Shown piece by piece: positions 37,361 to 54,968 of a stretch of DNA of 64,000 bases (its first letter is position 1; each line of letters begins with the position of its first letter). The position numbers and the translations under genes were made by a program. Under the pieces are notes generated by a model. The model searched no databases. It was given only the letters and a program-made list of their open reading frames with translations, and was not told where the DNA came from. Source of the DNA: Myxococcota bacterium (lineage in GTDB: Bacteria > Myxococcota_A > UBA796 > CAJQPC01); the NCBI GenBank assembly GCA_036229005.1, contig JAZAMN010000024.1:64001-128000 (forward strand), written 5' to 3'.

Positions 37361-39157
37361 GTGGAGTACAAGACCCCAGGCGTCTACATTCGTGAGGTAG
37401 ACAGCGGCCCCAAGCCCATCGAGTCCGTTTCTACGGCCATTCCCGGCTTCCTGGGCCTGTTCCCCTACAACCCGCCGGCCGACGCAATGGCCATCAGCGG
37501 CACCGATGGCAACCGGGCCATCGAGGGGAAGATCCCGCCCCAGCTGGTCGACAGCAGCGGCAAGATCTCGGCCAACCACTCGACCGAGGCCGCTGCCTCC
37601 ATCATCGAGGCCTTCCGCTTCCGTGACCGTCAGGTCAAGGACGTCGGCGCGCTGCTGAACCTCTACGGTCACAACGTCAAGATCGAGCCCGGCTCCAAGG
37701 GCCGCGTGAAGATCTCCGACACCAAGGACCCCAAGACGAAGATCGAGATCGCCGATGTCCTGGTGGACGTGAAGGGCGCTGTGATCACCGAGGACGATGA
37801 GGCCGTCGAGCAGCTGCTCAACGACATCGGCCAGGTGTTCGCGCTGGAGCAGGCCAAGCCCAAGCACGCCAAGGATGTGCTCTCGGCCTACGGCCTGAAC
37901 TTCGAGGGCAGCGCTCCCACCGCGCTGAACTCCGAGTACTCCATCCCGCCCATCGCGGTGACCAACAAGAGCGAGTTCTTCCGCTGGCTGCAGAGCTTCT
38001 TCGCGGAGTACCTGCTGGCCACCGAGCCGATGGAGGACCTGCTCCCCGGTCAGTCCTTCGAGGACCCCGATGACGCTGCTGACGCGGTGTTCGAGTCCCT
38101 GGCCCGCGACCCGGCCCTCAAGAAGCGCTTCCAGGACTTCCTGTCCCAGCCGAGCGTCTTCAACTTCGTGGCCAGCGTCAACGGCTTCTACGACAACGGC
38201 GGCGGCAAGGCCTACGTCTACCTCATGGGCACCTCCGACATGGACTGCCCCATCCGCGAGAACCAGGCCGACAAGCTCGGCATCTACGCCTTCGACGATG
38301 TCGACGACATGGCGCTGATGGCCGCTCCTGGCCTGACCCCGCGTCAGCAGAAGGAGATGCTGGAGTACTGCGAGATCCGCAAGGACCGCTTCGCCCTGCT
38401 TGACGGCCCGATCGTCTCCGACGGTCAGATGGACATCCCCGCCTCCGAGAAGGGCTACGGCGCCATCTACGTGCCCTGGGTAAAGGTGGCCAAGCCTACC
38501 TGGTTCAACGGCAAGCAGGACCACATCAAGGTCACCGGTCCCAACCGGCGCAAGCTGATCAAGACCGAGAAGAACGAGCTCTTCGTGCCCCCCAGCGGCC
38601 ACATCGCCGGCATCATCGCCCGCGTCGACGGCGAGCGCGGTGTTCACAAGGCCCCGGCCAACGAGCTCATCATGGGCATCACCGGTCTCAGCCAGAACAT
38701 CAACCGCATCGAGCAGGGCCAGTACAACGAGCGCGGCATCAACGTCGTGCGCGTGTTCAAGGACCGCGGCATCCGCGTCTGGGGTGCCCGCACCCTGGCC
38801 ACCAAGTCCGATCCGAGCTGGAAGTACATCAACGTCCGCCGCCTGTTCATCATGGTGGAGCAGTCCATCCTGCTCGGCGCGCAGTGGGCCGTCTTCGAGC
38901 CCAACGATCAGACCCTCTGGAAGAAGCTGGTGCGCGACGTGCGCGCCTACCTCCTGCGCGTCTGGCGCAGCGGCGCGCTCTTCGGAAACACGCCTGAGGA
39001 GGCCTTCTACGTCCGCTGTGACGAGGAGACCAACCCCCGCTACCTGATCGACGCCGGTCAGGTGAACGTGCAGATCGGAATTTGTCCCGTGAAGCCGGCA
39101 GAATTTGTTATCTTCAACATCGGTCAGTGGGACGGTGGCGCCCTGATCGAGGAATAA
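37361..39157 (+). CDS. Contractile tail sheath protein 1
   Basis: YKTPGVYIREV, GFYDNGG, VPPSGHIAG, GVHKAPAN, VWGARTL, YINVRR, AVFEPN, PVKPAEFV. Confidence 0.96.
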   Translation: MEYKTPGVYIREVDSGPKPIESVSTAIPGFLGLFPYNPPADAMAISGTDGNRAIEGKIPPQLVDSSGKISANHSTEAAASIIEAFRFRDRQVKDVGALLNLYGHNVKIEPGSKGRVKISDTKDPKTKIEIADVLVDVKGAVITEDDEAVEQLLNDIGQVFALEQAKPKHAKDVLSAYGLNFEGSAPTALNSEYSIPPIAVTNKSEFFRWLQSFFAEYLLATEPMEDLLPGQSFEDPDDAADAVFESLARDPALKKRFQDFLSQPSVFNFVASVNGFYDNGGGKAYVYLMGTSDMDCPIRENQADKLGIYAFDDVDDMALMAAPGLTPRQQKEMLEYCEIRKDRFALLDGPIVSDGQMDIPASEKGYGAIYVPWVKVAKPTWFNGKQDHIKVTGPNRRKLIKTEKNELFVPPSGHIAGIIARVDGERGVHKAPANELIMGITGLSQNINRIEQGQYNERGINVVRVFKDRGIRVWGARTLATKSDPSWKYINVRRLFIMVEQSILLGAQWAVFEPNDQTLWKKLVRDVRAYLLRVWRSGALFGNTPEEAFYVRCDEETNPRYLIDAGQVNVQIGICPVKPAEFVIFNIGQWDGGALIEE

Positions 39158-39229: not shown

Positions 39230-39673
39230 ATGCCTACTGATGATCTGTTTGGCGCATACCACTTCCTCCTGGAGATCCAGGGGGTCATCAACGACACCCG
39301 CGTGATCGTCGGCGGCTTCAAGTCCGTGTCCGGCATGGACTCGGAGACGGAGATCGTCGAGTTCAAGCAGGGCAACGACAAGGTCGTTCGTAAGAAGCCG
39401 GGTCGTACCACCTACTCGAACATCGTTCTCGAGCGTGGCTACACCGCGACTGATGACCTCTGGCTCTGGCGGAAGAACATCGAGGACGGCCAGATCGACC
39501 GCCGCTCCGGTTCCGTGATCATCATGGACCAGGATGGCGAGACCGAGGTCGCGCGCTACAACTTCTTCGAGGGTTGGCCCTGCAAGTGGTACGTGCCCGA
39601 CATGGACTCGGATACCTCCGGGATGGCCATTGAGAAGGTCGAGATCGCTGTCGAGAAGGTGGAGCGCGCCTGA
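39230..39673 (+). CDS. Tail tube protein 1 (T4 gp19-like)
   Basis: FKSVSGM, KKPGRTTYSNIVLERG, RRSGSVI, FFEGWPCKW. Confidence 0.95.
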   Translation: MPTDDLFGAYHFLLEIQGVINDTRVIVGGFKSVSGMDSETEIVEFKQGNDKVVRKKPGRTTYSNIVLERGYTATDDLWLWRKNIEDGQIDRRSGSVIIMDQDGETEVARYNFFEGWPCKWYVPDMDSDTSGMAIEKVEIAVEKVERA

Positions 39674-39758: not shown

Positions 39759-40124
39759 ATGGAGCTGAAGACCGAGTACGAGTTCACCCTTCCCCGCGGT
39801 TTCGTCGACAAGGACGGAAACATCCACAAGGAAGGGGTGATGCGCCTTGCGAATGCAAAGGACGAGATCGTTCCCTTGAACGATATGCGCGTCCAGCGCA
39901 ACCGGGCGTACTTGATCATTGTGCTGCTCAGCCGTGTGGTGACCAGGCTCGGTACGCTCTCCGAGGTGAACACGGGCACGGTGGAGAATCTCTTCGCCGG
40001 TGACCTGCGCTTCCTCGAGGAGATGTACAACCGCATCAACGAAGATGAGGCCACGGTACGCGTGACGTGTCCTGAGTGCGGCCACCGCTTCGACAAGGAG
40101 TTCGGCCGCCTGGGGGAATCGTAA
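39759..40124 (+). CDS. Tail assembly chaperone-like protein with C-terminal CxxC
   Basis: EYEFTLPRGFVD..GVMRLANAKDEI..LLSRVV..LFAGD..YNRIN..CPECG; directly follows the tube gene. Confidence 0.85.
   Translation: MELKTEYEFTLPRGFVDKDGNIHKEGVMRLANAKDEIVPLNDMRVQRNRAYLIIVLLSRVVTRLGTLSEVNTGTVENLFAGDLRFLEEMYNRINEDEATVRVTCPECGHRFDKEFGRLGES
40112..40118 (+). promoter_or_regulatory. Putative -1 programmed ribosomal frameshift site GGGGGAA
   Basis: CTG GGG GAA TCG TAA; the -1 frame continues into DUF6760. Confidence 0.65.
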
Positions 40125-40279: not shown

Positions 40280-40390
40280 GTTGCAGGACCGTCTGAGCGC
40301 GTAGTCTTCCTGGGTTTCCTCTGGAAGACTGCGCTTATCCCTTCGTGCACGTCCTCTGGATGTGCGCACCCTCCGACCGTGGATCCTCCC

Positions 40391-41581
40391 ATGAAGCCGG
40401 GCATCTCAGTCCAGCACAGCGCGCTGCCGACCCGCCGCTATGGCGTGGTGCGTGCGGACATTGCCGGGATCGTGGGCTTCATCACCAAGGAGCGCTGGCC
40501 CGTCGATGCGGCCGCCGGTGACTTCCTGGAGCTCAAGCTCCAGCGCTTCCGCGAGCTTGAGGATCACCCGCTGAGAGGTCTCTTCGGCCCGGTCACGACC
40601 GAGTCCGTCCGGAGCTTCTTCAACAACGGCGGAGACGTCTGCTTTCTCTTCGGCGTCTGCCTGGAGGACGCCCGCGAACTCGGCTCGGCCGGCAGCATCA
40701 GCAGTGTGCTGGAGCCATTGATCGTCCGGCTCCGCGGCAACGAGGAGATCGCGCTGCTCGCTGTGCCCGAGGCCGCCTACTTGCCCTGGACCATGTCCCG
40801 GACGGGCACAGTGAGCGCCGCCTGCGAGCCGCTGTATCGTGCGCTTCTGGCGCACTGCCGCGAGATGACCTCGCGTTTCCTGATCATGGATACGCCGCTT
40901 GGACTCCACGACGGAGCCCTGGAGCGGTGGGTCCACGCGTTCAGGAGCCTGGATCAGGACAACCTGAGCTACGGCGCGATGTACTACCCCTGGCTGATGA
41001 ACGGAGAGCGCGCGTTGCCCCCTTCCGCCGCGATGCTGGGGGTGTTCGCTCGGGTGGACCGCGAGCATCAGCCCTACGGGGTGATCTGGCCGCCGGCCAA
41101 CGTGCCCGTCCAGGATGTCACCCACCCGCAGGTCCCGTTGACCTGGGGTGAGGCGCAGCACCTGGCCTCCCAGAGCCTGAACCCCATCCTGACTCAGCCC
41201 GGTCGCGGGGTGTTGGTCTTCGGGGCGCGCACCCTGTCGCACGACCCGAACTGGGCTTTCATCAACTCTCGGCGGATCGCCTCGCTCATCTCGGAGCAGC
41301 TCCGGCGGGACAACGAGTGGGTGGTGTTCGAGACCAACCGCTCAGACATCTGGAAGATCCTCTCTCGCGACGTCCGCGCCCGCCTGGACGAGTTCTGGGA
41401 GCGCGGGATGCTCACTGGTGCCGCCGCTGGCCGGGACTACTGGGTCAAGTGCGACGAAGAGAACAACCCTCGGGAAGAGCGGGAGGCCGGTCGCATGAAC
41501 GTGCTCGTCCGCTTCCGTCCCGTGTCCACCACCGAACACATCACCATCGACCTGCGCTTGAGCCAGGCCGACGCCCGCTGA
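40391..41581 (+). CDS. Contractile tail sheath protein 2
   Basis: KPGISV, SFFNNGG, GAMYYPWL, WPPAN, VFGARTL, FINSRR, WVVFETN. Confidence 0.92.
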   Translation: MKPGISVQHSALPTRRYGVVRADIAGIVGFITKERWPVDAAAGDFLELKLQRFRELEDHPLRGLFGPVTTESVRSFFNNGGDVCFLFGVCLEDARELGSAGSISSVLEPLIVRLRGNEEIALLAVPEAAYLPWTMSRTGTVSAACEPLYRALLAHCREMTSRFLIMDTPLGLHDGALERWVHAFRSLDQDNLSYGAMYYPWLMNGERALPPSAAMLGVFARVDREHQPYGVIWPPANVPVQDVTHPQVPLTWGEAQHLASQSLNPILTQPGRGVLVFGARTLSHDPNWAFINSRRIASLISEQLRRDNEWVVFETNRSDIWKILSRDVRARLDEFWERGMLTGAAAGRDYWVKCDEENNPREEREAGRMNVLVRFRPVSTTEHITIDLRLSQADAR

Positions 41582-41593
41582 TCGGAGTCCAAC

Positions 41594-42028
41594 ATGTCCC
41601 GTGAAATCGTCGACCCTGAAGGAAACTTCATCTTCGAGCTGGAGATCGACGGGATCAGCGTCGCCCAGTTCATGGAGTGCAACGGCATCAAGACCACCAC
41701 CACGGTCTTCGAGATCGAAGAGGGTGGGGTGAACCACCGGGTGCACAAGGTCCCCGGCCAGAGCCGCTGGGAGAACCTGGTGCTGCGCTACGGGGTGACC
41801 GCCGACACCACCCTGCTGTCCTGGCGCCAGGAGATCCTGGAGGACGGCTTCGCCAAGCGGCGGAACGGGGCGATCATCATGAAGAACCTCGCGATGGAGG
41901 AGGTCCGTCGCTACAGCTTCACGAACGCCTGGCCAGTGGCCTACGAGGGCCCCAACTTTGTCGCCAACGGCGCGGAGCTGGCCGTCGAGATGATCGAGCT
42001 CGCCCACCAGGGCATCACCGTAAGCTGA
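41594..42028 (+). CDS. Tail tube protein 2 (gp19-like)
   Basis: FMECNGI, EEGGVN..HKVPGQSRWENLVLRYG, NAWPV.YEGP, EMIELAHQG. Confidence 0.95.
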   Translation: MSREIVDPEGNFIFELEIDGISVAQFMECNGIKTTTTVFEIEEGGVNHRVHKVPGQSRWENLVLRYGVTADTTLLSWRQEILEDGFAKRRNGAIIMKNLAMEEVRRYSFTNAWPVAYEGPNFVANGAELAVEMIELAHQGITVS

Positions 42029-42035
42029 GGTCGCC

Positions 42036-45000
42036 ATGAGCACCCAAGAGTTCACAGCACAGCCGCGCCGCGTCCCTGGACAGGGGGTGCTTGAGCGCCT
42101 GGAGCAGCGCAAGCAGCGCCGGCCCCGTATCGGGATGTCGCCGGAGTTCTACGCCCGCTTTGGGATGGCGGATCCGTGGGCAGAGGGCCCTTTGGAGCTG
42201 CAGGACGACCCGGGCTCGCTCTTCACCTATGTCGACGCAACGCGCTACCGGCGGATGATGCGTCGGCTGGCCTTCTCCCGCTGGCGTCGTGAGCGCCGCG
42301 CAAAGCTCTTTCACAGCCGCCGGGTTGGACTGCCCACGGCCGCGCGCCGCGCATTCCCCGGTGAGTCTCGTCGATTCACCTTCGGGCTCCGTACCCTCGG
42401 CCTCTCCGAGATGGTGGTTCCCGAGGCTCCCGAGCCCGAGGTCATCGAGGTCCCCGTCCAGAGCCGGCCCCGCTGGGTGCGAAACGGCATGCGCTCCGTG
42501 GACAACCCCTGGACCCAGACCCGGGGTGGGCCCGCCCGCAGCGTCCAGACCCGGGAGCGTCAGGACGACGGTACGCGCAGTGTGACCACCGACCGGCCCG
42601 CTCGGGTCGCCAGGGCCCGATCCATGGATCGGGTTGGTGCTCGTCTGGAGCAGAGCCAGGCCAGCCGTGACCCCGTCCGCAAGGCCCTGGAGGCCGCTGG
42701 TCCACGTCTGGATCGCCGCACCCAGCGGAAGGTCCAGGCTACGCTCGCAGCAACTGCCCACCTGCCGCCCGCCGAGCGCGCGGTCCGCATCCGAGAGGTC
42801 CTGCGAACCGTCCGTGTCGTCAGGGAGGTCTTCGAGGAGCGTGTCGCTCGGACGGTGCCTTCCAACATGGCGCGCCCTGCCGAGATCGCCAGGGGGCGGG
42901 TTGCTGCTGAGCCTTCGCGTCGCCGTGGCCTGCGTCCGGTGATGGGGCGCTCCCCGTCCATGGATGTGCTCGCCCCGGTCGCCGAGCCCCAGGTCGAGGC
43001 GGCTCCCGCACCTCGCAAGAGCAACACGCAGACCGCTCTGGCGCGCGCGACCACTCGGCGGGTCAGCGCCTGGTCCAAGCCGCCCACGTCAGATGGGGCT
43101 CGGGTGAGTCGGAGCATCAGCCGCTCCCCGGTCGCTCGGAGTGGGGCGCCCCTCAAGCGCACTGCCTCAGGGGCCTTTGTGCCGGCGCGTCGGATGCGCA
43201 CCGTGGAGACCTCGACGGTGCTCAGCAGTGCCGTGAAGACCGCAGAGAGCGCAACCCAAGGGGCAAAGTCCGGCAGCACGCGCACCACCCCGACCTCTGC
43301 TTCCCAGACCCACCGTACCGCCTCCTCCGGGACGACGGTCAGCGGAACCCACAAGACCCAGGGGCAAGAGGCTGTTGGAGCGCGGAGCACCCGGACCTCC
43401 ACCGCTGAGACCCTGGGTGCACGGAGCACCTCGGGAGCCTCTCACGCCGGCGAGGCCACCCGCAGCGCGACCACCGCCAACCGCGAGGACACCGGGGCTC
43501 GCTCCGTCCAGACCGCGGCGGGGGACACGCAGCAGAGTCAGGCGCTTCGCACTCAGGGGCGGGAGTCCCAGGGGGCGCGCAGCTTCACCACGGCCGCAGC
43601 TCAGGCTCGGGGTGTGGAGTCGACCGCCGAGCTTGAGACCACCGGCCTTGGCCATGTCGGTGCCCGCAGCTTCCGGACTGCCGCGAGCGCGCACGCCGCG
43701 GCTCGGGCAGGTGTTCAGCCTCCCTCGCGCGGCGCGCTGCCGACTCCCGCTCGGGTCGCGGCTCGGAGCGCGAGTGGTTCTTTCATTCCCGCTCGTCGGG
43801 TCGCAGGCGCGAGGAGCGAGCAGGCCTCCCCGTCCGACAGTCATGGGGCTTGGGCGCTGCAGCGCCTGGAGCGCACCGGTACCGCGTCCACGGCACGTCG
43901 GGGGCGCTCGCTGCTGCCTCGGATGGCGCCTCGGGCTCCTGAGTCCACCTACGTGGTTCACGCCAACGCCGACCTGGATGTCCAGGCCATGGTCTCGGAG
44001 ATCAAGCGCAGCGTGCCGGGGGCGCAGGTGAGCGTTCGGGAGCCCAAGGCGGTCAAGGCCTGGGGACCTTCGCCGGTCGCAGCGGCTGCGGAGCGCGCGC
44101 AGAAGTCTCCGGTGTTGTCCCAGTCTGCGGGAATGGCGCTGCCCTCCAGCACCGAGCGCAGTCTGCGTCGCGCGGTGGAGAGCAGCGCTCGGGTCGTTCG
44201 CACCCGGAATCCTGTTCGCTACGTGCGGAAGGCCTCAGCGGAGCAGGTGACTCTCGCGGGGGTGGATCCAAACACCCTGACCTCGCTGCCGGCACAGGTG
44301 CGTAAGGCATTGGGAGGCACGGACCCGACCCAGGCGGTGAGGACCGCGCAGGGGGTGTGGATCCCTGCCTCCTCCTTCACCACGGAGAACGCAGGGAGTT
44401 GGTCTGGGGCGCGCGCGCTTCGGACTGCAGCGAGCCGGAGCGCTGGCGCCCGCAGCGGAACCACCCAGAGTGGGAGCGCCGTCGGGGCTGCCCGTCGCCG
44501 GACCCTTGGGAGCCAAGGGACTGGGGCGGCGCGCTTTCGGACGCCGCCGCTCTCGGGTGGGGGCGCGCAGGTGTTCCTGAGCCCGGAGCGTGAGGATGTG
44601 GAGGCTCAGGGCTTCCAGACGACGGCTCGAGAGGATCGGGCAGCGCGCGTCGGCGTCGGTCGGCCTGTGGCCTGGGCTGGTGCTCGCACGCAGCTCACCG
44701 AGACCGGGGCTTGGCAGGGAGCTGAGCGCTTCACGACCGGTCGGGGGGGCTTCGCGCCCGGCGAGCGGGTGCAGGGAGCCAATCGGCAGGCGCGCGGTGC
44801 GCGTCGCAACACGCTCTCTACGCTCGAGGCGCTCTCGGCGCAGGAGTATCAGGCAGGTGGTCCGAGCTGGGCGGAGCGGACCACGCGTCCCTCCCGAATC
44901 CGGACGCCTGGGGACCTGGTCGACCAGCTCGTGCAGGCCCAGGACGTCGAGCAGCTCGTGGGTATCATCGTCGAGCGAGGCGCTGAGATCCGGCCCAACA

Positions 45001-45488
45001 TGGGGCTCCCCAAGCCGGTGATTCAGGTGATCGAGCAGATCCGGAGCGTGGCCGCGGCCGAAGAGCAGGCTGCCCGCTCTGCTGGATCCGGTGGGCGTCA
45101 AGCGCGCGTGGGCGCCCGGGCGAGCACCCGGCGTCGGAACGCCAAGGTCATCCGTGGCTTTGCTTCGTTGAAGGGAGGGACGGCCAGCAGCACCGCCGGA
45201 GTCGGTCCGGACAAGGTGATGAAGCTGGCGTCCAAGCTGCGGAACCTCATTCACCTGGCGGAGGGGGGCCGGACTGCGGATGCCCAGCGTCAGGTCAAGC
45301 TCGCCCACGGGGACCGCCCCGATGGCCGGATGGAGAACGGCACCGACTCCGGGAACTCCGAAACGGCCGCCAAGCAATCTGTAGACATCGAGGCCCTGGC
45401 TCGGGAGGTCCTGGATGTCGTGAACCGTGAGAAGGAGCTCCGACAGGAGCGTCGACAGGAGGAAAGCGATGCTGACGTCTGGTGGTAA
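42036..45488 (+). CDS. Large Arg/Ala/Ser/Thr-rich low-complexity protein, tape-measure-like
   Basis: Located between tube 2 and the tube initiator; C-terminal DIEALAREV...ELRQERR motif typical of CIS loci; GAGG SD. Confidence 0.6.
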   Translation: MSTQEFTAQPRRVPGQGVLERLEQRKQRRPRIGMSPEFYARFGMADPWAEGPLELQDDPGSLFTYVDATRYRRMMRRLAFSRWRRERRAKLFHSRRVGLPTAARRAFPGESRRFTFGLRTLGLSEMVVPEAPEPEVIEVPVQSRPRWVRNGMRSVDNPWTQTRGGPARSVQTRERQDDGTRSVTTDRPARVARARSMDRVGARLEQSQASRDPVRKALEAAGPRLDRRTQRKVQATLAATAHLPPAERAVRIREVLRTVRVVREVFEERVARTVPSNMARPAEIARGRVAAEPSRRRGLRPVMGRSPSMDVLAPVAEPQVEAAPAPRKSNTQTALARATTRRVSAWSKPPTSDGARVSRSISRSPVARSGAPLKRTASGAFVPARRMRTVETSTVLSSAVKTAESATQGAKSGSTRTTPTSASQTHRTASSGTTVSGTHKTQGQEAVGARSTRTSTAETLGARSTSGASHAGEATRSATTANREDTGARSVQTAAGDTQQSQALRTQGRESQGARSFTTAAAQARGVESTAELETTGLGHVGARSFRTAASAHAAARAGVQPPSRGALPTPARVAARSASGSFIPARRVAGARSEQASPSDSHGAWALQRLERTGTASTARRGRSLLPRMAPRAPESTYVVHANADLDVQAMVSEIKRSVPGAQVSVREPKAVKAWGPSPVAAAAERAQKSPVLSQSAGMALPSSTERSLRRAVESSARVVRTRNPVRYVRKASAEQVTLAGVDPNTLTSLPAQVRKALGGTDPTQAVRTAQGVWIPASSFTTENAGSWSGARALRTAASRSAGARSGTTQSGSAVGAARRRTLGSQGTGAARFRTPPLSGGGAQVFLSPEREDVEAQGFQTTAREDRAARVGVGRPVAWAGARTQLTETGAWQGAERFTTGRGGFAPGERVQGANRQARGARRNTLSTLEALSAQEYQAGGPSWAERTTRPSRIRTPGDLVDQLVQAQDVEQLVGIIVERGAEIRPNMGLPKPVIQVIEQIRSVAAAEEQAARSAGSGGRQARVGARASTRRRNAKVIRGFASLKGGTASSTAGVGPDKVMKLASKLRNLIHLAEGGRTADAQRQVKLAHGDRPDGRMENGTDSGNSETAAKQSVDIEALAREVLDVVNREKELRQERRQEESDADVWW

Positions 45489-47901
45489 GGCGACGTTCAT
45501 CGACCTCGACCTTGGAAGGATCTTTACGGTCCAGTACAACCCCAAGGAATTCAAGGTCGACAAGGCGGTCTCCTGGAAGGAGCACGACGACCAGGGCCAG
45601 TCGCAGGCCCCCCTTGAGTTCCAGAAGGGGGCGCCCATCGTGGTCACGATGGAGCTCATCTTCGACACGACCCACGACGGTTCGGACGTCCGGAGCAAGG
45701 TGCAGGGCCTGATGGCCTTCACCAACGCGGACGTGCCGGTGCAGGGCGAAGGGTCGATGGACAAGAAGCGTCCGCCGCATCTGCAGTTCACTTGGGGCAA
45801 CTTCACGATCACCTGCGTGATCGAGTCCCTCAACGTCAGCTACCTGATGTTCTCCAGCGGCGGTAAGCCCATCCGGGCGCGCGTCTCGCTCAAGCTCAAG
45901 GAGTGGGAGCCCAAGGATGCCGCTGGTGGCAGCGGTGGCAGCGGGATCAGCGGCAGCAAGATCAAGCTGGTGAGCGCGGGGGCCGGGGCAACGGCCAGCT
46001 CGCTTGCCTCCCAGCACGGGACGACCGCGCGCCAGATCATGGATGACAACAACATCGATGACGGCATGGACATCCCGGCGGGCACGGAGCTCGTGATCAA
46101 CGATCCGAGCGGTGGGCCCGGCAACGTCAGCTCCAACCGCAACCAGACCTCGTCGGACTCTCCCTTCCAGGAGATCCAGGACGCCATCTCCGAGGTCCAG
46201 AAGGTGGTCAAGGAGGTCGAGAAGACCAAGAAGCAGATCGAGCAGATCTTCAACCCGACCGCGGGCAAGCCTCCTGGCAGCAAGGGAGGCTCCGGCCGTC
46301 CCGGCAGCGGTGGCGTCGCTGGCGCCCCTGGTTTCCCGGGTGCTGGTGGCGGAAAGCCGGGTAGCGCTCCCGGTGGCGCAGGCGGCTCCGGACCTGGCTA
46401 CGGTGGCGGCTACGGCGGCGGTGCAGGCGGTCCTGGCGGCGGCGGTGCAGGCGGTCCCGGTGGCGGCGGTGCAGGCGGTCCTGGCGGCGGCGGTGCAGGC
46501 GGTCCTGGCGGCGGCGGTGCTGGTGGCGGCGCAGGCGGTGCTGGTGGCGGCAAGCCCGGTGGCGGTGGCTCTTCCGGTGGTGCTGGTGGCGGCAAGCCCG
46601 GTGGCGCAGGAGGCTCCGGCGGTGGCGCTGGTGGCGGTAAGCCCGGCGGCGGTGGCTCCTCTGGTGGTGCTGGTGGGGGCAAGCCCGGCGGCGCTGGTGG
46701 TGCTGGCGGCGGCGCTGGTGGTTCCGGTGGCGGCGCAGGTGGTGCTGGCGGCGGCGCAGGTGGTTCCGGCGGCGGCGCTGGTGGTTCCGGCGGCGGCGCA
46801 GGTGGTGCTGGCGGCAGCGCAGGCGGTGCTGGCGGTGGCGCAGGTGGCTCCGGCGGTGGTGCCGGCGGCGCAGGTGGCTCTGGCGGTGGTGCTGGCGGCG
46901 CAGGTGGCTCCGGCGGTGGTGCTGGCGGCGCAGGCGGTTCCGGCGGTGGTGCTGGCGGCGCAGGTGGCTCCGGCGGCGCAGGCGGGTCCGGCGCGGGTGC
47001 TGGCGGCGCAGGCGGTGCCGGCGGTGCTGGCGGCGCAGGTGGCTCCGGCGGTTCCGGCGGCTCCGGCAGTGGCAAGCCCGGCGGCGGTAGCAGTTCGGGT
47101 GGGTCCAGCGGGTCCGGCGGCAAGCCTGGTGGCTCCGGCGGCGGTGCAGGCGGTGGTGCTGGCGGCGCAGGTGGCTCCGGCGGTTCCGGCAGTGGCAAGC
47201 CCGGAGGCGGTAGCAGTTCGGGTGGGTCCAGCGGGTCCGGCGGCAAGCCCGGTGGCTCCGGCGGCGGTGCAGGCGCAGGCGGCGCAGGTGGCTCCGGCGG
47301 TGCAGGCGCAGGCGGCGCAGGTGGCTCCGGCGGTGGTGCAGGCGCAGGCGGCGCAGGTGGCTCCGGCGGTGGTGCAGGCGCAGGTGGCTCCGGCAGTGGC
47401 GCCGGCGGATCCGGCTCCGGCAAGCCCAGCGGCGGCAGCTCCTCCTCTTCTGGAGGGGCCGGCGGCAAGCCGGGTGGTGCCGGTGGCTCGGGCGGCGGTG
47501 CGGGGGCTGGTGGCGCTGGCGGCTCCGGCTCTGGCAAGCCTGGCGGGGGCAGCTCGTCGGGTGGCAGCTCCTCGGGTGGCAAGCCCAGCGGTGCCGGCGG
47601 CTCCGGGAGCAGTGGTGGCTCGTCGAGCGGCAAGCCCAGCGGTGGGAGCTCGTCGGGCGGAGGTGGAGCCAAGCCCAGCAGCGCGGGTGGCGGCAGCTCT
47701 TCGGGCGGGAAGCCCAGGGGAGGCAGCAGCTCGGGTAGCGGCGGCAGCGGCCCCTCAGGCAGCAGCAGCGGCTCCAGTGGACCTTCGGGTCCTCGTGGTC
47801 CCCGTCAGGCGAACACCCAGGGTGGAGGCCGAAAGGTGGCCTCCGACGTCAAGTCGGCCAAGGCGAAGGCTGAGGCCAAGGCTTCGGAAGGAAAGGAGTA
47901 G
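45469..47901 (+). CDS. CIS tube initiator (Afp7/Pvc7-like) with LysM-like domain and very long Gly-rich tail
   Basis: VQYNPKEF, MELIFDT, RPPHLQFTWG, VIESLNVSYLMF..GKPIRARVSLKLKE; LASQHGTTARQIMDDNNI..IPAGTELVI; AGGAGG SD. Confidence 0.88.
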   Translation: MLTSGGKATFIDLDLGRIFTVQYNPKEFKVDKAVSWKEHDDQGQSQAPLEFQKGAPIVVTMELIFDTTHDGSDVRSKVQGLMAFTNADVPVQGEGSMDKKRPPHLQFTWGNFTITCVIESLNVSYLMFSSGGKPIRARVSLKLKEWEPKDAAGGSGGSGISGSKIKLVSAGAGATASSLASQHGTTARQIMDDNNIDDGMDIPAGTELVINDPSGGPGNVSSNRNQTSSDSPFQEIQDAISEVQKVVKEVEKTKKQIEQIFNPTAGKPPGSKGGSGRPGSGGVAGAPGFPGAGGGKPGSAPGGAGGSGPGYGGGYGGGAGGPGGGGAGGPGGGGAGGPGGGGAGGPGGGGAGGGAGGAGGGKPGGGGSSGGAGGGKPGGAGGSGGGAGGGKPGGGGSSGGAGGGKPGGAGGAGGGAGGSGGGAGGAGGGAGGSGGGAGGSGGGAGGAGGSAGGAGGGAGGSGGGAGGAGGSGGGAGGAGGSGGGAGGAGGSGGGAGGAGGSGGAGGSGAGAGGAGGAGGAGGAGGSGGSGGSGSGKPGGGSSSGGSSGSGGKPGGSGGGAGGGAGGAGGSGGSGSGKPGGGSSSGGSSGSGGKPGGSGGGAGAGGAGGSGGAGAGGAGGSGGGAGAGGAGGSGGGAGAGGSGSGAGGSGSGKPSGGSSSSSGGAGGKPGGAGGSGGGAGAGGAGGSGSGKPGGGSSSGGSSSGGKPSGAGGSGSSGGSSSGKPSGGSSSGGGGAKPSSAGGGSSSGGKPRGGSSSGSGGSGPSGSSSGSSGPSGPRGPRQANTQGGGRKVASDVKSAKAKAEAKASEGKE
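46264..47805 (+). repeat. Coding Gly-rich tandem repeat array
   Basis: 24-bp GGGGAGGP units, 30-bp GGAGGSGGGA units, recurring GKP, duplicated SGSGKPGGGSSSGGSSGSGGKPGG block. Confidence 0.9.
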
Positions 47902-47904
47902 CGC

Positions 47905-48942
47905 ATGTCTTCGCAGCCTCGCTCCACCGCGGTCGGCTTTGAAGTGACCATCGGTGGCCAGACCTTCACCCAGGCCTCGGAAGAGGGTGGTGTGCAGATG
48001 CTGGTCGTCGAGGATCACGTCGATATGACCGACATGCTCACCCTCCGGATGGGCGGGACCCAGGGCCAACCGGACTGGAACTGGAAGATCGGCGACGAGG
48101 TCGAGTGCAAGCTCGGCAGCGGCGGCACCATCTTCAAGGGGCAGATCACCGCCATGGAGCCCGGGTACCAGGTCGAAGGGACCAGCACGGTCACCCTGCG
48201 GGCCATGGACCAGATGCACAAGCTGGGCCGTGGCCGGAAGACCCGCACCTTCGAGGACATGAAGGACTCCGACGTCGTCAGCCAGGTCGCCGGTGAGGCC
48301 GGCATCCCGACGGGCAACATCGAGGCCACTTCGGAGATCCACCCCTACATCCTGCAGCGCAACGAGTCCGACGTCGCCTTCCTCAAGCGGCTGGCGGCGC
48401 GGAACAACTACCTGCTGACCATGGAGGACGGGTCCATCGCCTTCAAGCGCGCCCAGTTCGGTGGCGGTGGGTACAAGCTCAAGATGGGGGACAACCTGCG
48501 CAGCATGCGGATGTCCTTCAACTCCATGGACCAGGTCCAGAAGGTGGTCGTGCGCGGGTGGGACCCCCACACCAAGCAGGCCATTGTCGGGGAGGCCACC
48601 ACGGCCGACGTCGAGCGCATCGGCGGAGGTGAGGTGGGCGCGGACACCGCGGGCCAGTTCGGAGAGTCCACTGCGTACATCACCGATGTGCCGGTGTTCT
48701 CCCAGGCCGCCGCCAACGAGATCGCAAAGGTCGAGATGAACCGGCTCGCCCGTCAGTTCGGCCGCGGCAGCGCCACGGTCCAAGGCAACGAGCAGATCCG
48801 CGCGGGCACGACCGTCGAGGTCGAGGGGCTCCAGAAGGGCAACAACGGCACCTTCTTCATCCTCTCCAGCCGGCACGTGATCTCCAACCGCTCCGGCTAC
48901 ACCACCGAGTTCAGCTTCTGCACCAACACGATGGGCACCTGA
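47905..48942 (+). CDS. Baseplate hub (phage late control D / gp27-like, VgrG N-terminal part only)
   Basis: GRKTRTFEDMKDSDVV, QRNESDVAFLKRLAAR, VVVRGWDP, GNEQIRAG; ends without an OB-fold or beta-helix. Confidence 0.9.
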   Translation: MSSQPRSTAVGFEVTIGGQTFTQASEEGGVQMLVVEDHVDMTDMLTLRMGGTQGQPDWNWKIGDEVECKLGSGGTIFKGQITAMEPGYQVEGTSTVTLRAMDQMHKLGRGRKTRTFEDMKDSDVVSQVAGEAGIPTGNIEATSEIHPYILQRNESDVAFLKRLAARNNYLLTMEDGSIAFKRAQFGGGGYKLKMGDNLRSMRMSFNSMDQVQKVVVRGWDPHTKQAIVGEATTADVERIGGGEVGADTAGQFGESTAYITDVPVFSQAAANEIAKVEMNRLARQFGRGSATVQGNEQIRAGTTVEVEGLQKGNNGTFFILSSRHVISNRSGYTTEFSFCTNTMGT

Positions 48943-49037
48943 GCTCGGGCCCCCGGGCCCCGTCCGAACGCCCCCAGAGGTAGACTCCCGGGGCACCGCG
49001 CGGAGGCACCCGCGCAGACCTGCACTGGAGCAGCCTA

Positions 49038-49427
49038 GTGTCTCAGCGAGACTTTCTCGGGAAGGGGTGGGCATTCCCCTTCGGATTCGACCGCGCGAGC
49101 GGTGGGGTCCGGACCTCCTCGGGCGAGGAGAACATCCGGCAGTGCATCACCGTGATCCTGTCCACCCGGCCGGGTGAGCGGCAGATGCTCCCGGAGTTCG
49201 GCTGTCGGCTGCACGAGGTCCTGTTCGCGCCGAACACCCAGGCGACCTCGGCGCTCATCGCGCACCATGTCAAGACCGCGCTCGTCCGCTGGGAGCCACG
49301 CATCGAGGTGCTGGACGTGCAGGCCCAGGCCCAGGCTGATGGGTCGGTCAACGTCGACGTGCACTACCTGATCAAGGCCACGAACACCCGCCAGGTCCAC
49401 ACCACGGCCCTGGCCAACACCCGCTGA
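49038..49427 (+). CDS. Baseplate wedge GPW/gp25 family
   Basis: FLGKGWAFPF, ILSTRPGERQMLPEFGC, RWEPRIEV. Confidence 0.95.
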   Translation: MSQRDFLGKGWAFPFGFDRASGGVRTSSGEENIRQCITVILSTRPGERQMLPEFGCRLHEVLFAPNTQATSALIAHHVKTALVRWEPRIEVLDVQAQAQADGSVNVDVHYLIKATNTRQVHTTALANTR

Positions 49428-49433: not shown

Positions 49434-52400
49434 ATGCCGATCAAGCCGCCAAACCTCGACGATCGCCGCTACGAAGACATCGTCGCCCAGGCACGCTCCC
49501 TGATCCCCCAGTACACCCCCGAGTGGACCAACCTGGGGGACGCGGATCCGGGAATGACCCTCGTCCAGCTCTTCGCCTGGATGACGGAGATGACGATCTA
49601 CCGGCTCAACCGGGTGCCGGACAAGACCTACATCCACTTCCTGAACTTCATCGGCGAGGAGCGCCGGGCGGCCCGACCCTCCGTGGCTCCGGTGACGTTC
49701 AGGCTGCGGGCGGATCACCCGGTCGAGGTCCCTGCGTTCACAAAGGTCGCTACCCGGCAGCGTGAAGACCTTCCGGCGCTGGACTTCCTGACCTCGCAGG
49801 CGCTGACCGTGCACGACAGCAAGGTCGTACGCGTCATGGCCGTCAAGGGTGGGCCCACCCCCTCCGTGCGGGAGTTGCCCTTCTCCTGGCTCGGTGGAGA
49901 CCCCAGCGCGCTCTCCTTTGCCGGTGGAGCGGGCGTCGCGGTCTTCGAGATCGACCCCCTGCACTTCGGGCCGGACGCCTACACCCCGCATCAGTACCTC
50001 TACTTGGGCCACGACGACCTCCGCCTGATGGACATCGATCCCGAAGAGGACACGGACCGGCCCCTCGGACGCCTCCAGGCCCGCCGGCGCTCCGGCGACC
50101 CCCTGTCGATCATCAACTTCTTCCGCTGGGAATACCCCACGGAGCAGGGCTGGCAGCCGATCTACGTCGAGCGCGAGGGCGAAGCCCCCTACGGCATCCC
50201 CGAGCACACCCTGATCACGGCCATGCCGGGCATCATGCCGCTGGATCGCTTCGGGCTCCAGGGCGCGGAGTTCATCAAGCCGGCCTCCGTCCGCGACCAG
50301 GACTGGTGGATCCGCGGGACTCTGGACTACGAGGCCTGGATGGCCGCCCGGATGGATCAGGAGTCGCGTGAGCAGGGTGGGGGAGACCTCTCCATCACCT
50401 GGCACGATGACCGCGGCGGCGAGGTCCGGGAGCTCAACAACTGGTCGGTGCGCGCTGCGGGCCGGACGCTGGAGTTCTACCTCAAGGATGCCCCCCTGAT
50501 CCGCGGTGGCTGGTCCCTGCGGCTCTCTCTGGTGGACCGGGGGCTGCAGGCGGGGAGGACGGCTGCGTTCCCCAAGTACCGCTTCTCCTACCGCCGGGGT
50601 GAGGTCTGGCAGCCCATCCCTGACGATCGCGTCCGGGTCGAGGGCACCGAGATCATCCTCCACGGTCCCCTCAACGACATGGCCCGCGACGGCTACAACC
50701 TGCGGGCGGAGCGCATCGAGACGGTGTTCCTGCGCGGGCTCATCAAGGACCTGGAGCTGGACCTGAACTGGTCCCGGCCGGTCGAGCTCTCCCTGCTCGC
50801 GGGTGACAACCCCTTGTCGCTCGTGCAGCTCCCCATGGACGAGCGCCCCTGGTCTCCCTTCCAGATGTCGTCGGTGCTCCCGCCCACCATCGGGCGGCGC
50901 CTCTACATCGGCTCGGACCTCTTCGAGAACCGGCAGAAGCTGCCCATCCTGGTCGAGTTCGAGATCGCCTTCGAGCTCAACGGCGAAGAGATCGAGGAGC
51001 CCGTCGACGACTACAAGCTGCAGCTCACCTACCGCGCCGACGACAACTGGCGCGTGGTCTACAGCCCAGACCAGCGCTACGCCGGCTTCACCCTCTCGGA
51101 CATCGACCCCGAGGGCGCGAAGAAGGCTGGGCGGCGCCGGGTGCGCATCGTCATCGACCCCGCCGAGCAGCTCAAGGGACTGGCCCGCCACGAGGTCTCC
51201 AACATCGAGACCACCTGGCTGCGGCTGGAGCTCATCAAGTCCAACCTCACCGGTCAGGACAAGAAGAAGAACGTGCACCCGGTGGTGCCGCGCATCCACA
51301 ACCTCCGCCTGGGGCCCGAGAAGACCCTGGGGATGGAGGCCTACGACCAGCCCATGCCCAACCCCCTGGTGGCCCAGGTGGATCACCGCGAGCAGAACCG
51401 CCGCTTGACGCGCTGCGTGTCCCGGGTGGCCGGCCGGACCTCGGAGAAGCACCCCTTCTTCCGCTTCGTGGACCTGGAGGAGGAGACCCTGTCCCTCTAC
51501 CTCCAGTTCGACAAGCCGCTCCCCCGGGGAGAGCGCCACGCCCTGCACTTCCGCTGCCGCGGCGAGGCCTTCCTGCCCGAGGGCACCTACGTGGAGTGGG
51601 AGATCCTGGAGCGCCGGCAGCACGGCCGCACCGCCTGGCGTCGGCTGGTTTCCTCCGGTGACAGCGGCCCGGGTGTCTACGAGCTCTCCCGCAGCGGCGA
51701 GCTGGAGTTCGCCCTCCCGGACATCCCCCCGGTTCCGGACGACGGCTTCTGGCTGCGCGCCCGCTTCGTCCTGCCCGAGGACACCGGCCTGGACGCGCTC
51801 CCCGGTCTGCCGCCCCTGACCCACCTGATGCTGAACACCGTCGAGGTGGTCAACCTGGACACCGTCCGCGCCGAGCGCTTCTCGGGACTGGGGGTGCCCA
51901 ACCAGGTGCTGGAGCTGCGCGAGCACCCCATCTTCATCCACCCCGGAGAGCAGGACAAGGCGGTCTTCCCGCGGCCCGAGCTGTTCACGGACGTGGCCGT
52001 GACCGTCATCTACCCCGACGGCACCCGCGAGCCCTGGTACCGGGTCGATGACCTGCTGCTCACCGGCAAGGACGACCCGGTCTACACCGTGGACCCCGTG
52101 GACGGCACGCTGCACTTTGGCAACGGCATCCGCGGCCGCATGCTGCCCGTCGGGACCAACAACGTCCTGGTCGACGTCTACCACGTCGTCCCCGGCGAGA
52201 AGGGCAACATCGGGGCCCACGAGATCCGCGTCGCGGACGGCTTCGGGGACCGGGTGGAGATCTCCAACCTGCTGCCGGCCACCGGCGGGCGGGACGCCGA
52301 GTCCATCGACGAGATCATCGAGCGGGCCCCCTCGCTGCTGACCTCCCGGGACCGGGCCGTGACCCGTCAGGACTTCGAGATCATCGCCATGGAGGCCTCC

Positions 52401-52946
52401 GGCGAGGTCGCTCGCGCCGCCTGCGTGGGCGAGATGAAGCGGGACGGCACCGTCGATGTGGTGGTGCTCCCCCGGCGCCGCGAGGGCGAGATCCTGCCCG
52501 ACCCCTTCCTGAGCGTGGGCCTGCGGGACCACGTGGAGAGCTACCTGAACCGCCGCTGCCTGATCAACGTGCAGCCCAAGGTCCGGCTGGCCAGCTTCCT
52601 GCCCATCGACGTGAGCATCACCCTGCGGCTGCGGCCCAACGCCAACGTGCTGGTGGTCCGGGAGCAGGCCGAGCTTTGGATCCGCTACTTCCTGGACCCC
52701 TATGTCGGCGGGCTGGACGGCGAGGGCTGGCCCTTCTCCGCCACCCTCTTCGCCCAGGACTTCGGCCGAATGGTCGCCGACATCGCCGAGGTGCGGCACG
52801 TCTCCGAGGTGCGCGTCTACGACGTCAGCGACAAGGCCCGCCGCGCCCCCGGCTGGGAGGAGAGCGAGGGCGTCGAGGAGCTGCACCTGGACCGCCATGA
52901 CCTGGTGGCGGTGCGCAAGGTGCGCGTGAAGATCGAGGACCGCTGA
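49434..52946 (+). CDS. Baseplate J-like protein (Afp11-like) with large central insertion
   Basis: PNLDDRRYEDIV..PEWTN..DPGMTLVQLFAW; FGNGIRG; ATGGRDAES; DRAVTRQDFE. Confidence 0.93.
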   Translation: MPIKPPNLDDRRYEDIVAQARSLIPQYTPEWTNLGDADPGMTLVQLFAWMTEMTIYRLNRVPDKTYIHFLNFIGEERRAARPSVAPVTFRLRADHPVEVPAFTKVATRQREDLPALDFLTSQALTVHDSKVVRVMAVKGGPTPSVRELPFSWLGGDPSALSFAGGAGVAVFEIDPLHFGPDAYTPHQYLYLGHDDLRLMDIDPEEDTDRPLGRLQARRRSGDPLSIINFFRWEYPTEQGWQPIYVEREGEAPYGIPEHTLITAMPGIMPLDRFGLQGAEFIKPASVRDQDWWIRGTLDYEAWMAARMDQESREQGGGDLSITWHDDRGGEVRELNNWSVRAAGRTLEFYLKDAPLIRGGWSLRLSLVDRGLQAGRTAAFPKYRFSYRRGEVWQPIPDDRVRVEGTEIILHGPLNDMARDGYNLRAERIETVFLRGLIKDLELDLNWSRPVELSLLAGDNPLSLVQLPMDERPWSPFQMSSVLPPTIGRRLYIGSDLFENRQKLPILVEFEIAFELNGEEIEEPVDDYKLQLTYRADDNWRVVYSPDQRYAGFTLSDIDPEGAKKAGRRRVRIVIDPAEQLKGLARHEVSNIETTWLRLELIKSNLTGQDKKKNVHPVVPRIHNLRLGPEKTLGMEAYDQPMPNPLVAQVDHREQNRRLTRCVSRVAGRTSEKHPFFRFVDLEEETLSLYLQFDKPLPRGERHALHFRCRGEAFLPEGTYVEWEILERRQHGRTAWRRLVSSGDSGPGVYELSRSGELEFALPDIPPVPDDGFWLRARFVLPEDTGLDALPGLPPLTHLMLNTVEVVNLDTVRAERFSGLGVPNQVLELREHPIFIHPGEQDKAVFPRPELFTDVAVTVIYPDGTREPWYRVDDLLLTGKDDPVYTVDPVDGTLHFGNGIRGRMLPVGTNNVLVDVYHVVPGEKGNIGAHEIRVADGFGDRVEISNLLPATGGRDAESIDEIIERAPSLLTSRDRAVTRQDFEIIAMEASGEVARAACVGEMKRDGTVDVVVLPRRREGEILPDPFLSVGLRDHVESYLNRRCLINVQPKVRLASFLPIDVSITLRLRPNANVLVVREQAELWIRYFLDPYVGGLDGEGWPFSATLFAQDFGRMVADIAEVRHVSEVRVYDVSDKARRAPGWEESEGVEELHLDRHDLVAVRKVRVKIEDR

Positions 52947-54044: not shown

Positions 54045-54968
54045 ATGGAGTTCTCCCGCCTCAACCCCTTCGAGGGGCTCTGCCTGACCAGCGCGGACCT
54101 GCGCGACGAGCAGGCCTACCACCGCCAGAACCTGCACCGCCACGCCAACTACATGCACAGCCACGGCATCGTGCAGGGCCTGCAGGTGGAGCTGGAGTCC
54201 CGGCAGGGCAAGTACCTGGCGCGCATCTCCGCCGGCTACGGCCTGACCCGCGCGGGCCAGGGCGTGGAGCTCGAAGAGGCCAAGCAGGTCATCCTCGAGG
54301 TCCCCAAGCAGGACGGCGAGTACATGCTCTGGCTCTTCCACGTGGAGCAGCCCGACGAGCACAGCCAGCGGCCGGTCTTTGACACCCAGGAGCTCCGTGC
54401 CGCCCGGGTGTTGGAGCGGGCCGCCCCCGCGCTGCATCCCGCGGACGAGGACCACGATGGCGCCGTGGCGCTGGCCCGACTGAACGTGCGCCTGGGGCGC
54501 ATCGTGCACGTCAAGCTCCCCGTTCCTCGGGCGGGTCGGCAGGCGCGGGCAGCGGAGAGCTACCTCAAGCCCCGGGTGGTGGAGTTCATCCGTCTGAGCA
54601 AGAAGGTCATGCAGAACCTCTTCAGGACGGCCTTGGTCAAGGAGCTGGACCTGGCGGTGCTGAACTTCTCCAGCGCCTTGGTGAGCTCCGAGTTCCTGCT
54701 GATCGAGGAGGGGACCGCCGACCGCGTGCTCTACCGCACCGCAGGCAGCCTGATCAGCTACGCGCACGACTACTACAACGCCATGCCCCGCACGACGGAC
54801 CGGGTGGCCAAGTTCACCGAGTTCGTGCGGCGGGTGCATGCCGAGCTGCCCGGCCAGGAGCAGGGCGACGAGGTCTGGCTCAAGTGGTTCGAGAAGTTCG
54901 AGCGCCTGCTCACCCCGCTGAACAAGATCAGCGAGGAGCTCGAGAAGACCGTCGAGGCCCAGCGATAG
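54045..54968 (+). CDS. CIS fibre-base-like N-terminal domain plus helical C-terminal domain
   Basis: RLNPFEGLCLTSADLRDEQAYH..HSHGIVQGLQV..ISAGYGL..GQ. Confidence 0.7.
   Translation: MEFSRLNPFEGLCLTSADLRDEQAYHRQNLHRHANYMHSHGIVQGLQVELESRQGKYLARISAGYGLTRAGQGVELEEAKQVILEVPKQDGEYMLWLFHVEQPDEHSQRPVFDTQELRAARVLERAAPALHPADEDHDGAVALARLNVRLGRIVHVKLPVPRAGRQARAAESYLKPRVVEFIRLSKKVMQNLFRTALVKELDLAVLNFSSALVSSEFLLIEEGTADRVLYRTAGSLISYAHDYYNAMPRTTDRVAKFTEFVRRVHAELPGQEQGDEVWLKWFEKFERLLTPLNKISEELEKTVEAQR

What the first reader, a model, noticed from the sequence alone, without database searches (positions are those of the whole stretch)
45469..47901. Tube initiator/LysM protein with a Gly-rich tail of about 500 aa
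Seen: after the initiator domain, LysM and a short amphipathic helix (FQEIQDAISEVQKVVKEVEKTKKQIEQIF) come about 1.5 kb of G/A/S repeats punctuated by GKP, ending in a Lys/Ala-rich tip. The frame stays open and synonymous codons vary between repeats. Known: Afp7/Pvc7-type proteins are compact and sit at the baseplate in six copies. Inference: six flexible or polyglycine-II filaments projecting from the baseplate as tether or fibre substitute, with repeat-variable length.
Basis: partly seen in the sequence, partly recalled or inferred. Interest (0 to 1): 0.75.

Follow-up and report, generated by a model that had tools for sequence, protein, structure and literature searches.

The report
Leashed baseplate of a bacterial nanosyringe
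A core baseplate protein of a phage-tail-like injection machine in uncultured marine bacteria carries a real, length-variable tail of about 550 mostly glycine residues that is predicted to be floppy and likely works as a six-copy leash that helps position the machine, a feature absent from the solved bacterial versions but recurrent, in different sequences, across this bacterial order.

Summary
Observation confirmed. Window 45469-47901 encodes an 810-aa Afp7/Pvc7/Cis7-type tube initiator (tube fold, LysM, amphipathic helix 232-261) with a 510-aa G/S/A core (59% Gly, 16 GKP) and a basic tip, inside a contractile injection system (CIS) locus of a marine Myxococcota genome. It is unlikely to be an artefact: contigs from three studies cross the 5' junction and two of them the 3' junction, strain differences are mostly synonymous or in frame, and two congeners carry a GKP-punctuated Gly tail with the same tip. 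No contig spans the array, so its exact length is unverified. Solved homologues are 217-282 aa. Across the order, extensions after the LysM range from none to about 600 aa and are basic, acidic or Ala/Lys-rich; long ones usually end in an amphipathic helix. AlphaFold gives the tail pLDDT 30-45, and a congener lacks excess GGX register, so a polyglycine-II filament is unsupported. 'Fibre substitute' is also unsupported: the Cis13-like gene keeps its length with or without a tail. Best reading (inferred, 0.45): a disordered, accessory six-copy leash on the baseplate rim with docking helices. Neutral expansion is the main rival. New variant of a known kind; interest 0.5.

The parts
45469..47901 (+). 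810-aa Afp7/Pvc7/Cis7-type tube initiator with C-terminal extension
45457..45462 (+). AGGAGG ribosome-binding site, six bases before the ATG; the start overlaps the end of the upstream ORF (stop at 45488)
   Evidence: sequence
45523..45918 (+). gp48-like tube-initiator beta-barrel (PF19266, aa 19-150)
45991..46098 (+). LysM (gp53-like wedge clamp), aa 175-210
   Evidence: role from solved homologues
46162..46251 (+). amphipathic helix aa 232-261, conserved in the clade; two homologous proteins (P0006, P0007) end right after it
46264..47793 (+). 510-aa G/S/A low-complexity core punctuated by 16 GKP; nested 24-, 30-, 42-, 87- and 123-nt repeats; predicted disordered
47794..47901 (+). basic tip aa 776-810, alignable with the tips of congeners G001 and G002
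36509..37357 (+). Pvc16-type cap/terminator
37361..39157 (+). sheath 1
39230..39673 (+). tube 1 (gp19)
39759..40124 (+). probable tail assembly chaperone
   Evidence: phrog_508, E 0.0012
40379..41581 (+). sheath 2
41594..42028 (+). tube 2 (Cis5-like)
42036..45488 (+). 1150-aa A/R/S/T-rich ORF in the tape-measure/plug position; conserved ends, variable length in relatives
47905..48942 (+). gp27-only hub (345 aa, no gp5 part)
49038..49427 (+). gp25 sheath adaptor
49434..52946 (+). baseplate J wedge, 1170 aa
52946..54034 (+). P2_I / Cis12-like wedge
54045..54968 (+). 307-aa protein with a Cis13-like N-terminus (below the family cut-off) and no recognised receptor-binding domain
55010..55921 (+). 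YukD-like domain + three hydrophobic segments + Cys/His-rich end; candidate membrane partner (inference)

Best explanation
The gene encodes the tube-initiator (Afp7/Pvc7/Cis7-type) subunit of a contractile injection system, extended by a genus-conserved, length-variable Gly/Ser/Ala tail that is predicted to be disordered and likely trails in six copies from the outer rim of the baseplate as an accessory leash with short docking helices. Shown: domains, composition, open frame, presence in congeners, variation between strains. Known from solved homologues: a hexameric ring whose C-terminal LysM reaches out to the wedge and sheath, so whatever follows the LysM starts outside the tube. Predicted: helix 232-261 and a disordered tail (contour about 200 nm, coil radius 7-8 nm by scaling formulas). 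Inferred and untested: the amphipathic helix and the basic tip bind weakly to an anionic surface, most likely the producer's inner membrane or a neighbouring particle, and the spacer sets reach. The tail would tune docking or clustering and would not be needed for assembly or firing. Selection would act on composition, frame and the end motifs, not on the repeat sequence.
For: Fold and position: (best hits are Cis7/Pvc7/Alg7/Afp7 chains). Disorder: pLDDT 35-45 in the full model, 32.7 for the tail alone, 0.42 mean for the Atlas model; 4 large hydrophobic or aromatic residues in 511. Maintenance: 12 of 14 listed strain differences in the tail and 9 of 9 in the N-domain are synonymous. Congeners G001 and G002 share the GKP punctuation and the tip but not the repeat unit. 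Recurrence: 33 of 81 genomes read have 100 aa or more after the LysM, with basic, acidic or mixed composition (sample enriched for long frames). 9 of 12 complete genome tails of 240 aa or more, and 8 of 11 further representative proteins, end in an amphipathic-helix-like tip, against 0-17% of mid-tail windows in the genome set. The locus has no variable fibre and ends in a predicted membrane protein, as in the fibre-less, membrane-docked Streptomyces CIS (PMC12237407 passages).
Against: No partner for helix or tip was identified. Many orthologues have no extension: 74 of 120 have 15 aa or fewer after the LysM, 31 of 81 have 20 or fewer, and the rest of the locus is unchanged in them. The tip score threshold was set by me after seeing the tips, kin are not independent, and 3 of 12 and 3 of 11 tips fail it. 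In this clade the strong helix precedes the spacer, whereas in family f3 it follows it, so one shared mechanism is not shown. Shorter basic tails in genus g9 end without a helix. Opposite charges in different lineages fit tolerance as well as function. The Alg7 linker before the LysM was found cleaved (PMC8894135), so processing is possible.
Confidence: 0.45

Rival explanations
1. Near-neutral expansion: the LysM C-terminus faces solvent and tolerates any hydrophilic appendage; repeat slippage inflates it and selection only keeps the frame open and the chain non-aggregating.
For: Tail absent in many relatives with an otherwise identical locus. Composition differs freely between lineages. Ala codons in the tail are GCA/GCT in 55 of 66 cases, against 8 of 53 in the sheath gene, as expected from amplification of founder units. 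The genome has other Gly-rich tails.
Against: The tip and GKP punctuation are kept in three species whose repeat units differ. 12 of 14 tail differences are synonymous. Helix-like tips recur on unrelated long tails. About 550 extra residues in six copies per particle is a cost (inference).
Confidence: 0.25
2. The tail folds into a polyglycine-II bundle or sandwich (PE_PGRS- or S16 gp38-like), with GKP as turns, giving a stiff paddle or filament.
For: Runs of three or more GGX triplets cover 180 of 511 residues against 105 in shuffles (0 of 2000 reach it). PGRS helices span three to five triplets (PMC10216338). 8 of 15 GKP spacings are 14-17 residues. In-frame indels are tolerated in PGRS too.
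Against: AlphaFold2 gives 35-45 and 32.7, whereas the PGRS study used models with average pLDDT above 90. There is no hydrophobic foot. Congener G002 has 54 residues in such runs against 81 in shuffles, and the G001 3' piece has none. No Atlas hit by features and no structure hit above TM 0.25. Caveat: the tail was folded with no or almost no alignment depth and I ran no positive control, so the AlphaFold result is a weak negative.
Confidence: 0.12
3. The tails replace tail fibres and are the primary prey-binding adhesins of a released eCIS.
For: The locus has no recognisable receptor-binding fibre domain. The tail is net basic (+25) and could bind anionic cell surfaces. Marine Myxococcota eCIS tube genes are highly expressed and proposed to act in predation (PMC11937823 passages).
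Against: The Cis13-like gene is 307 aa in 17 of 19 loci that reach it (one 312, one cut) regardless of Afp7 length, so tail-less loci have no longer fibre to compensate. Many long tails are acidic. No binding domain sits at the tip.
Confidence: 0.1
4. The tail is processed off, or is packed in the tube lumen as cargo or a length-measuring chain.
For: A cleaved linker is reported in Alg7. A contour of about 200 nm is of the order of CIS lengths (217 nm for Roseiflexus particles).
Against: The LysM lies outside the tube in solved homologues. A separate long ORF occupies the tape-measure position. Tail length varies between strains.
Confidence: 0.05
5. The array is an assembly artefact.
For: No contig in four runs spans the whole array. 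Gly repeats do cause mis-joins: L123 runs from this tail into a DnaJ-like sequence (DnaJ recognised from recall).
Against: Contigs from three studies cross the 5' junction and from two the 3' junction into the hub gene. The longest exact repeat is 50 nt. G002 has at least 229 aa of the same kind of tail before the same tip.
Confidence: 0.03

Closest known systems
Cis7 / Pvc7 / Afp7 / Alg7 tube initiators (PDB 9gtp, 6j0n, 9qgl, 6rao, 7aeb, 7b5h)
   Same: Tube-initiator barrel plus LysM, same gene position before the hub; best sequence and fold hits.
   Different: Those chains are 227-240 aa and end at or just after the LysM; this one adds a helix, a 510-aa Gly core and a basic tip.
Streptomyces coelicolor cytoplasmic CIS with CisA
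   Same: Best solved homologue (9gtp, E 3.6e-14); no conventional fibre; a membrane-protein gene follows the baseplate genes.
   Different: Its Cis7 is 240 aa. Here the hub is gp27-only with gp5 unlinked, there are two sheath genes and a Cis13-like gene; homology of the membrane protein to CisA was not tested.
Thylakoid-anchored CIS of Anabaena
   Same: A baseplate extension is used for membrane anchoring (PMC12237407 passage), the job inferred here.
   Different: The extra domains described there are in Cis11; its Cis7 is 234 aa.
PE_PGRS domains and phage S16 gp38 polyglycine sandwich
   Same: More than 50% Gly, GGX runs, tolerance of in-frame indels.
   Different: No hydrophobic foot, no confident model, triplet register not kept in a congener.
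eCIS-like clusters of marine Myxococcota MAGs (PMC11937823)
   Same: Afp/PVC-like cluster in uncultured marine Myxococcota.
   Different: The passages I saw describe tube and sheath genes and expression, not an initiator tail; whether their clusters are orthologous to this one was not tested, and their supplements were not read.

Membership tests
Afp7/Pvc7/Cis7 tube initiator | N-terminal gp48-like tube barrel | tested here: met
   PF19266 above cut-off; Foldseek E 7e-14 to 4e-11 to seven CIS initiator chains
Afp7/Pvc7/Cis7 tube initiator | LysM after the barrel | tested here: met
   PF01476 aa 175-210, 25.5 bits vs cut-off 20.9
Afp7/Pvc7/Cis7 tube initiator | Gene between tube and hub/gp25/baseplate J genes | tested here: met
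Afp7/Pvc7/Cis7 tube initiator | Hexamer built into the baseplate with the LysM on the wedge | not testable with these tools
   inferred from solved homologues
eCIS-like locus (Chen et al. 2019 core) | Afp1/5, Afp2/3/4, Afp7, Afp9, Afp11, Afp16 homologues | tested here: met
eCIS-like locus (Chen et al. 2019 core) | Afp8 spike (gp27 + gp5, fused or split) | tested here: inconclusive
   gp27 in the locus; gp5-like pair and PAAR-like genes unlinked on other contigs; their pairing with this hub is inferred
eCIS-like locus (Chen et al. 2019 core) | Afp15 AAA+ ATPase | tested here: inconclusive
   none among the 31 window ORFs scanned; the genome search used a family that does not identify Afp15
eCIS (released particle) | Release and action on another cell | not testable with these tools
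   mode of action is unreliable from sequence alone (PMC12998442 passage)
PGRS-type polyglycine-II sandwich | GGX triplets in register | tested here: inconclusive
   enriched here, not in congener G002
PGRS-type polyglycine-II sandwich | Hydrophobic/aromatic edge loops | tested here: not met
   4 such residues in 511
PGRS-type polyglycine-II sandwich | Confident AlphaFold sandwich model | tested here: not met
   pLDDT 35-45 and 32.7; shallow alignment, no positive control

The most novel reading that the evidence does not exclude
An order-wide, vertically kept CIS of uncultured Myxococcota has turned its tube initiator into a display platform for unstructured leashes of up to about 600 residues ending in amphipathic helices. 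These would dock the fibre-poor machine on the producer's membrane or gather particles into batteries: a third way to anchor a CIS, by disordered tethers, beside the T6SS membrane complex and the folded tCIS or CisA anchors, with reach tuned by repeat number.
Probability: 0.2. Interest if true: 0.78.

Novelty: new variant of a known kind. Interest (0 to 1): 0.5.

Why it matters
How injection machines without conventional fibres or a membrane complex find and hold their firing position is an open question. A variable disordered extension on a six-copy core subunit offers a testable answer in a CIS found in 127 of 154 genomes of this order. Even if neutral, it shows that the Afp7 C-terminus tolerates hundreds of extra residues in nature, and so marks a likely site for tags on CIS particles. 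I found no description of such tails in nine literature searches (open-access library only, supplements not read).

Tried and rejected
Protein search for 445-1418-aa homologues with aa 1-265 found none; long forms exist but are too divergent for that word-based search. No RNA holder listed. At 97% likeness neither X1 nor X3 covered 47044-47087; a hole proves nothing. Out-of-frame indels appeared: one base left out at 46798 in one contig each of X1 and X2, and several in low-depth X4 contigs. The X1 case lies between loose ends at 46783 and 46814 and probably comes from another locus; I did not treat these as alleles and could not prove it. Overlapping frames 46112-47947 (+) and 46410-47672 (-) were rejected as by-products of GGC repeats. 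Proteins P0002 and P0008 and locus L122 end in what look like translated adapters (recalled pattern) and are truncated; L123 looks chimeric. An exact 24-nt scan of metagenome contigs found nothing. The Atlas search of the tail gave no usable hit. The C-terminus of the 1150-aa ORF had no PDB match. The AAA search was uninformative. The careful tree did not finish; the quick tree was used. Earlier-findings look-ups were empty. No complex prediction was run, as no specific partner is claimed.
Full report
Observation. Window 45469-47901 is one 810-aa frame with a ribosome-binding site. It has a CIS_tube domain (aa 19-150) and a LysM (aa 175-210), a linker, an amphipathic helix (aa 233-261; moment 0.53, reached by 0.06% of 5000 shuffles), a 510-aa core of 299 G, 91 S, 66 A, 30 P, 18 K and 6 others, and a 35-aa basic tip. 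Sixteen GKP motifs punctuate the tail. It is the longest of 10 Gly-rich stretches found in the genome.

Context. The gene lies in a CIS cluster: Pvc16-type cap, two sheaths, two tubes, a probable chaperone, a 1150-aa low-complexity ORF, this gene, a gp27-only hub, gp25, baseplate J, a P2_I protein, a 307-aa protein with a Cis13-like N-terminus, and a YukD-like protein with three hydrophobic segments. Same-family records are titled Myxococcota and the runs that hold the stretch are marine or seawater metagenomes. An orthologue was found in 127 of 154 genomes of the order. No gp5 or PAAR gene is in the cluster; a tandem gp5-like pair with a PAAR-like gene lies on contig C2, and the first of the pair has matches in 27 of 31 genomes searched.

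Is it real? Contigs from three studies cross from the N-domain into the Gly array (to 46417, 46457 and 46706), and those of two studies run from 47353-47355 into the hub gene; none spans the array. Of the listed single-base differences, 9 of 9 in the N-domain and 12 of 14 in the tail are synonymous in the Gly frame (placement inside repeats is less sure). Long contigs show in-frame length changes: a 72-nt skip at 46412-46485 (X2, depth under 5) and insertions of 15 nt and 6 nt (X3). A few out-of-frame indels occur in short or low-depth contigs and are probably from other loci. The longest exact repeat is 50 nt. Congener G001 (82% identical N-part) starts the same Gly/Pro tail and breaks at its contig end. 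Upstream of their hub genes, G001 and G002 carry GKP-punctuated Gly/Ser sequence (at least 229 aa in G002) and a tip that aligns with this one. The tail is therefore a genus-level trait; only its exact length here is unverified.

Where it sits. Sequence and fold searches return the solved initiators Cis7, Pvc7, Alg7 and Afp7; the eight initiator-like chains matched by sequence are 217-282 aa. In those structures six copies form the first tube ring and the C-terminal LysM extends to the wedge and sheath proteins (passages of PMC12546770, PMC8894135, PMC8894136, PMC6851490). Anything after the LysM therefore begins at the outer baseplate. This step follows from homology, not from data on this particle.

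What shape. AlphaFold2 with 115 sequences models the barrel, LysM and helix 232-261 confidently and the tail at pLDDT 35-45; the tail alone scores 32.7. For a polyglycine-II bundle: runs of three or more GGX triplets cover 180 of 511 residues against 105 in shuffles (0 of 2000). Against: no hydrophobic edge, which PGRS sandwiches have (PMC10216338 passages), and the register is not enriched in G002 (54 vs 81) or the G001 3' piece. The AlphaFold negative is weak because alignment depth over the tail is minimal and no control was run. Disorder with local PII propensity is the best reading. Scaling formulas give about 200 nm contour and a 7-8 nm coil radius.

Survey of relatives. Among 120 homologues of 145-464 aa, 74 have 15 or fewer residues after the LysM, 41 have 16-100 and 5 more than 100 (some are truncated). 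I read the gene in 81 of the 127 genomes with a match, choosing partly for long open frames: 31 have 20 or fewer residues after the LysM, 17 have 21-99, 33 have 100 or more and 9 have 400 or more; 12 are cut by contig ends. Of 150 profile hits, 83 had barrel plus LysM; 29 of these had 100 or more and 12 had 300 or more. Composition is not shared: basic Gly-rich in genera g1 and g9, acidic or mixed in family f3, short acidic in f2, Ala/Lys-rich in f7, essentially none in f4 and f5. In a quick tree of the N-domains (87 rows, midpoint root, no AU test) long tails fall in two places, family f3 and the g1/g9 group, the latter inside a branch that also holds tail-less genera. This means two gains, or one gain with several losses. 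The helix after the LysM is conserved in this clade, and two database proteins end right after it (their stops were not checked in DNA), which suggests that the Gly tail was appended to, or lost from behind, a terminal helix. Long tails often end in an amphipathic-helix-like segment: 9 of 12 complete genome tails of 240 aa or more and 8 of 11 further proteins (threshold set after seeing the data, kin not independent).

Fibre substitute? Of 25 loci compared, 19 reach the Cis13-like gene: 17 are 307 aa, one 312, one cut, while Afp7 spans about 215-810 aa; the hub is 343-351 aa in 21 of 21 (lengths projected from the alignment start). Tail-less loci have no longer fibre in the stretches read, so no trade-off is seen. 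Passages and section 7 of the eCIS fibre catalogue (PMC12923769) do not mention Afp7 or LysM.

Mechanism. I commit to an accessory leash (0.45): LysM clamps the wedge (known), the helix and the basic tip dock weakly on an anionic surface, most likely the producer's membrane or a neighbouring particle (inferred), and the disordered spacer gives variable reach (predicted). The invariant, binding-domain-free Cis13-like protein and the downstream membrane protein recall the fibre-less, membrane-docked Streptomyces CIS (PMC12237407 passages), but mode of action cannot be read reliably from sequence (PMC12998442 passage), and others propose a predatory eCIS role for marine Myxococcota clusters (PMC11937823 passages). 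Rivals: neutral expansion 0.25, PII bundle 0.12, adhesin 0.10, processing or lumen cargo 0.05, artefact 0.03.

Novelty. The protein is a member of a known family; the extension is a variant I did not find described in nine searches. I also saw passages of PMC6899500 (its 'C-terminal extension' concerns VgrG) and PMC13243192, and the abstract of PMC13277306. No supplements were read; those of PMC6899500 and PMC11937823 could list such loci. Interest 0.5: real, recurrent and testable, but low-complexity tails are common, the function is inferred, and the two boldest first-stage ideas are unsupported.

Noticed in passing
window 47905-49427; G000:C2:72385-75390; G000:C57:33387-33782: The hub is gp27-only, with a gap of 6-308 nt to gp25 in 20 of 21 loci. 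A tandem pair of gp5-like genes plus a PAAR-like gene sits elsewhere in the genome; the first gp5-like gene has matches in 27 of 31 genomes searched, usually with a second match beside it, and none in the three g4 genomes that also lack the initiator. A conserved split locus with a possibly two-component spike.
   Followed up: partly
window 42036-45488: 1150-aa A/R/S/T-rich ORF in the tape-measure position with conserved N- and C-terminal ends; the tube2-to-initiator distance varies from 3.0 to 5.9 kb among relatives. The final helix resembles a spike-plug helix (recalled, no match). Compare Sle1-type tape-measure-related effectors (abstract only).
   Followed up: partly
window 55010-55921: YukD-like ubiquitin-fold domain, three hydrophobic segments and a Cys/His-rich end; conserved just downstream of the Cis13-like gene in most loci that reach it. 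Candidate membrane anchor, analogous in position to CisA.
   Followed up: partly
window 54045-54968: Cis13-like protein of nearly invariant length (307 aa, 51-77% identity across the order) with no recognised binding domain; Atlas clusters are Myxococcota hypothetical proteins.
   Followed up: partly
G000:C50:13269-21356: A second, divergent CIS cluster (sheath, tube, 233-aa initiator-like protein without a Gly tail, hub, gp25, gp5-like gene).
   Followed up: no
window 40101-40279: Short ORF (about 50 aa) right after the chaperone gene, in another frame, as in chaperone/frameshift-extension pairs of tail loci (pattern recalled).
   Followed up: no
window 46264-47793: Codon use in the tail is unlike neighbouring genes: Ala is GCA/GCT in 55 of 66 codons against 8 of 53 in the sheath and 7 of 75 in baseplate J; Gly GGT is 34%.
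   Followed up: no
L022-L025, L086, P0030, P0051: Several short-tailed orthologues end in alternating beta-like strings finishing in aromatic or basic residues, others in an amphipathic helix ending in Phe; these resemble membrane-targeting ends (recalled).
   Followed up: no
window 49434-52946: Baseplate J is 1170 aa, with about 800 residues of insert between the conserved ends, and nearly constant in length across the order; may form a spike cage (inference).
   Followed up: no
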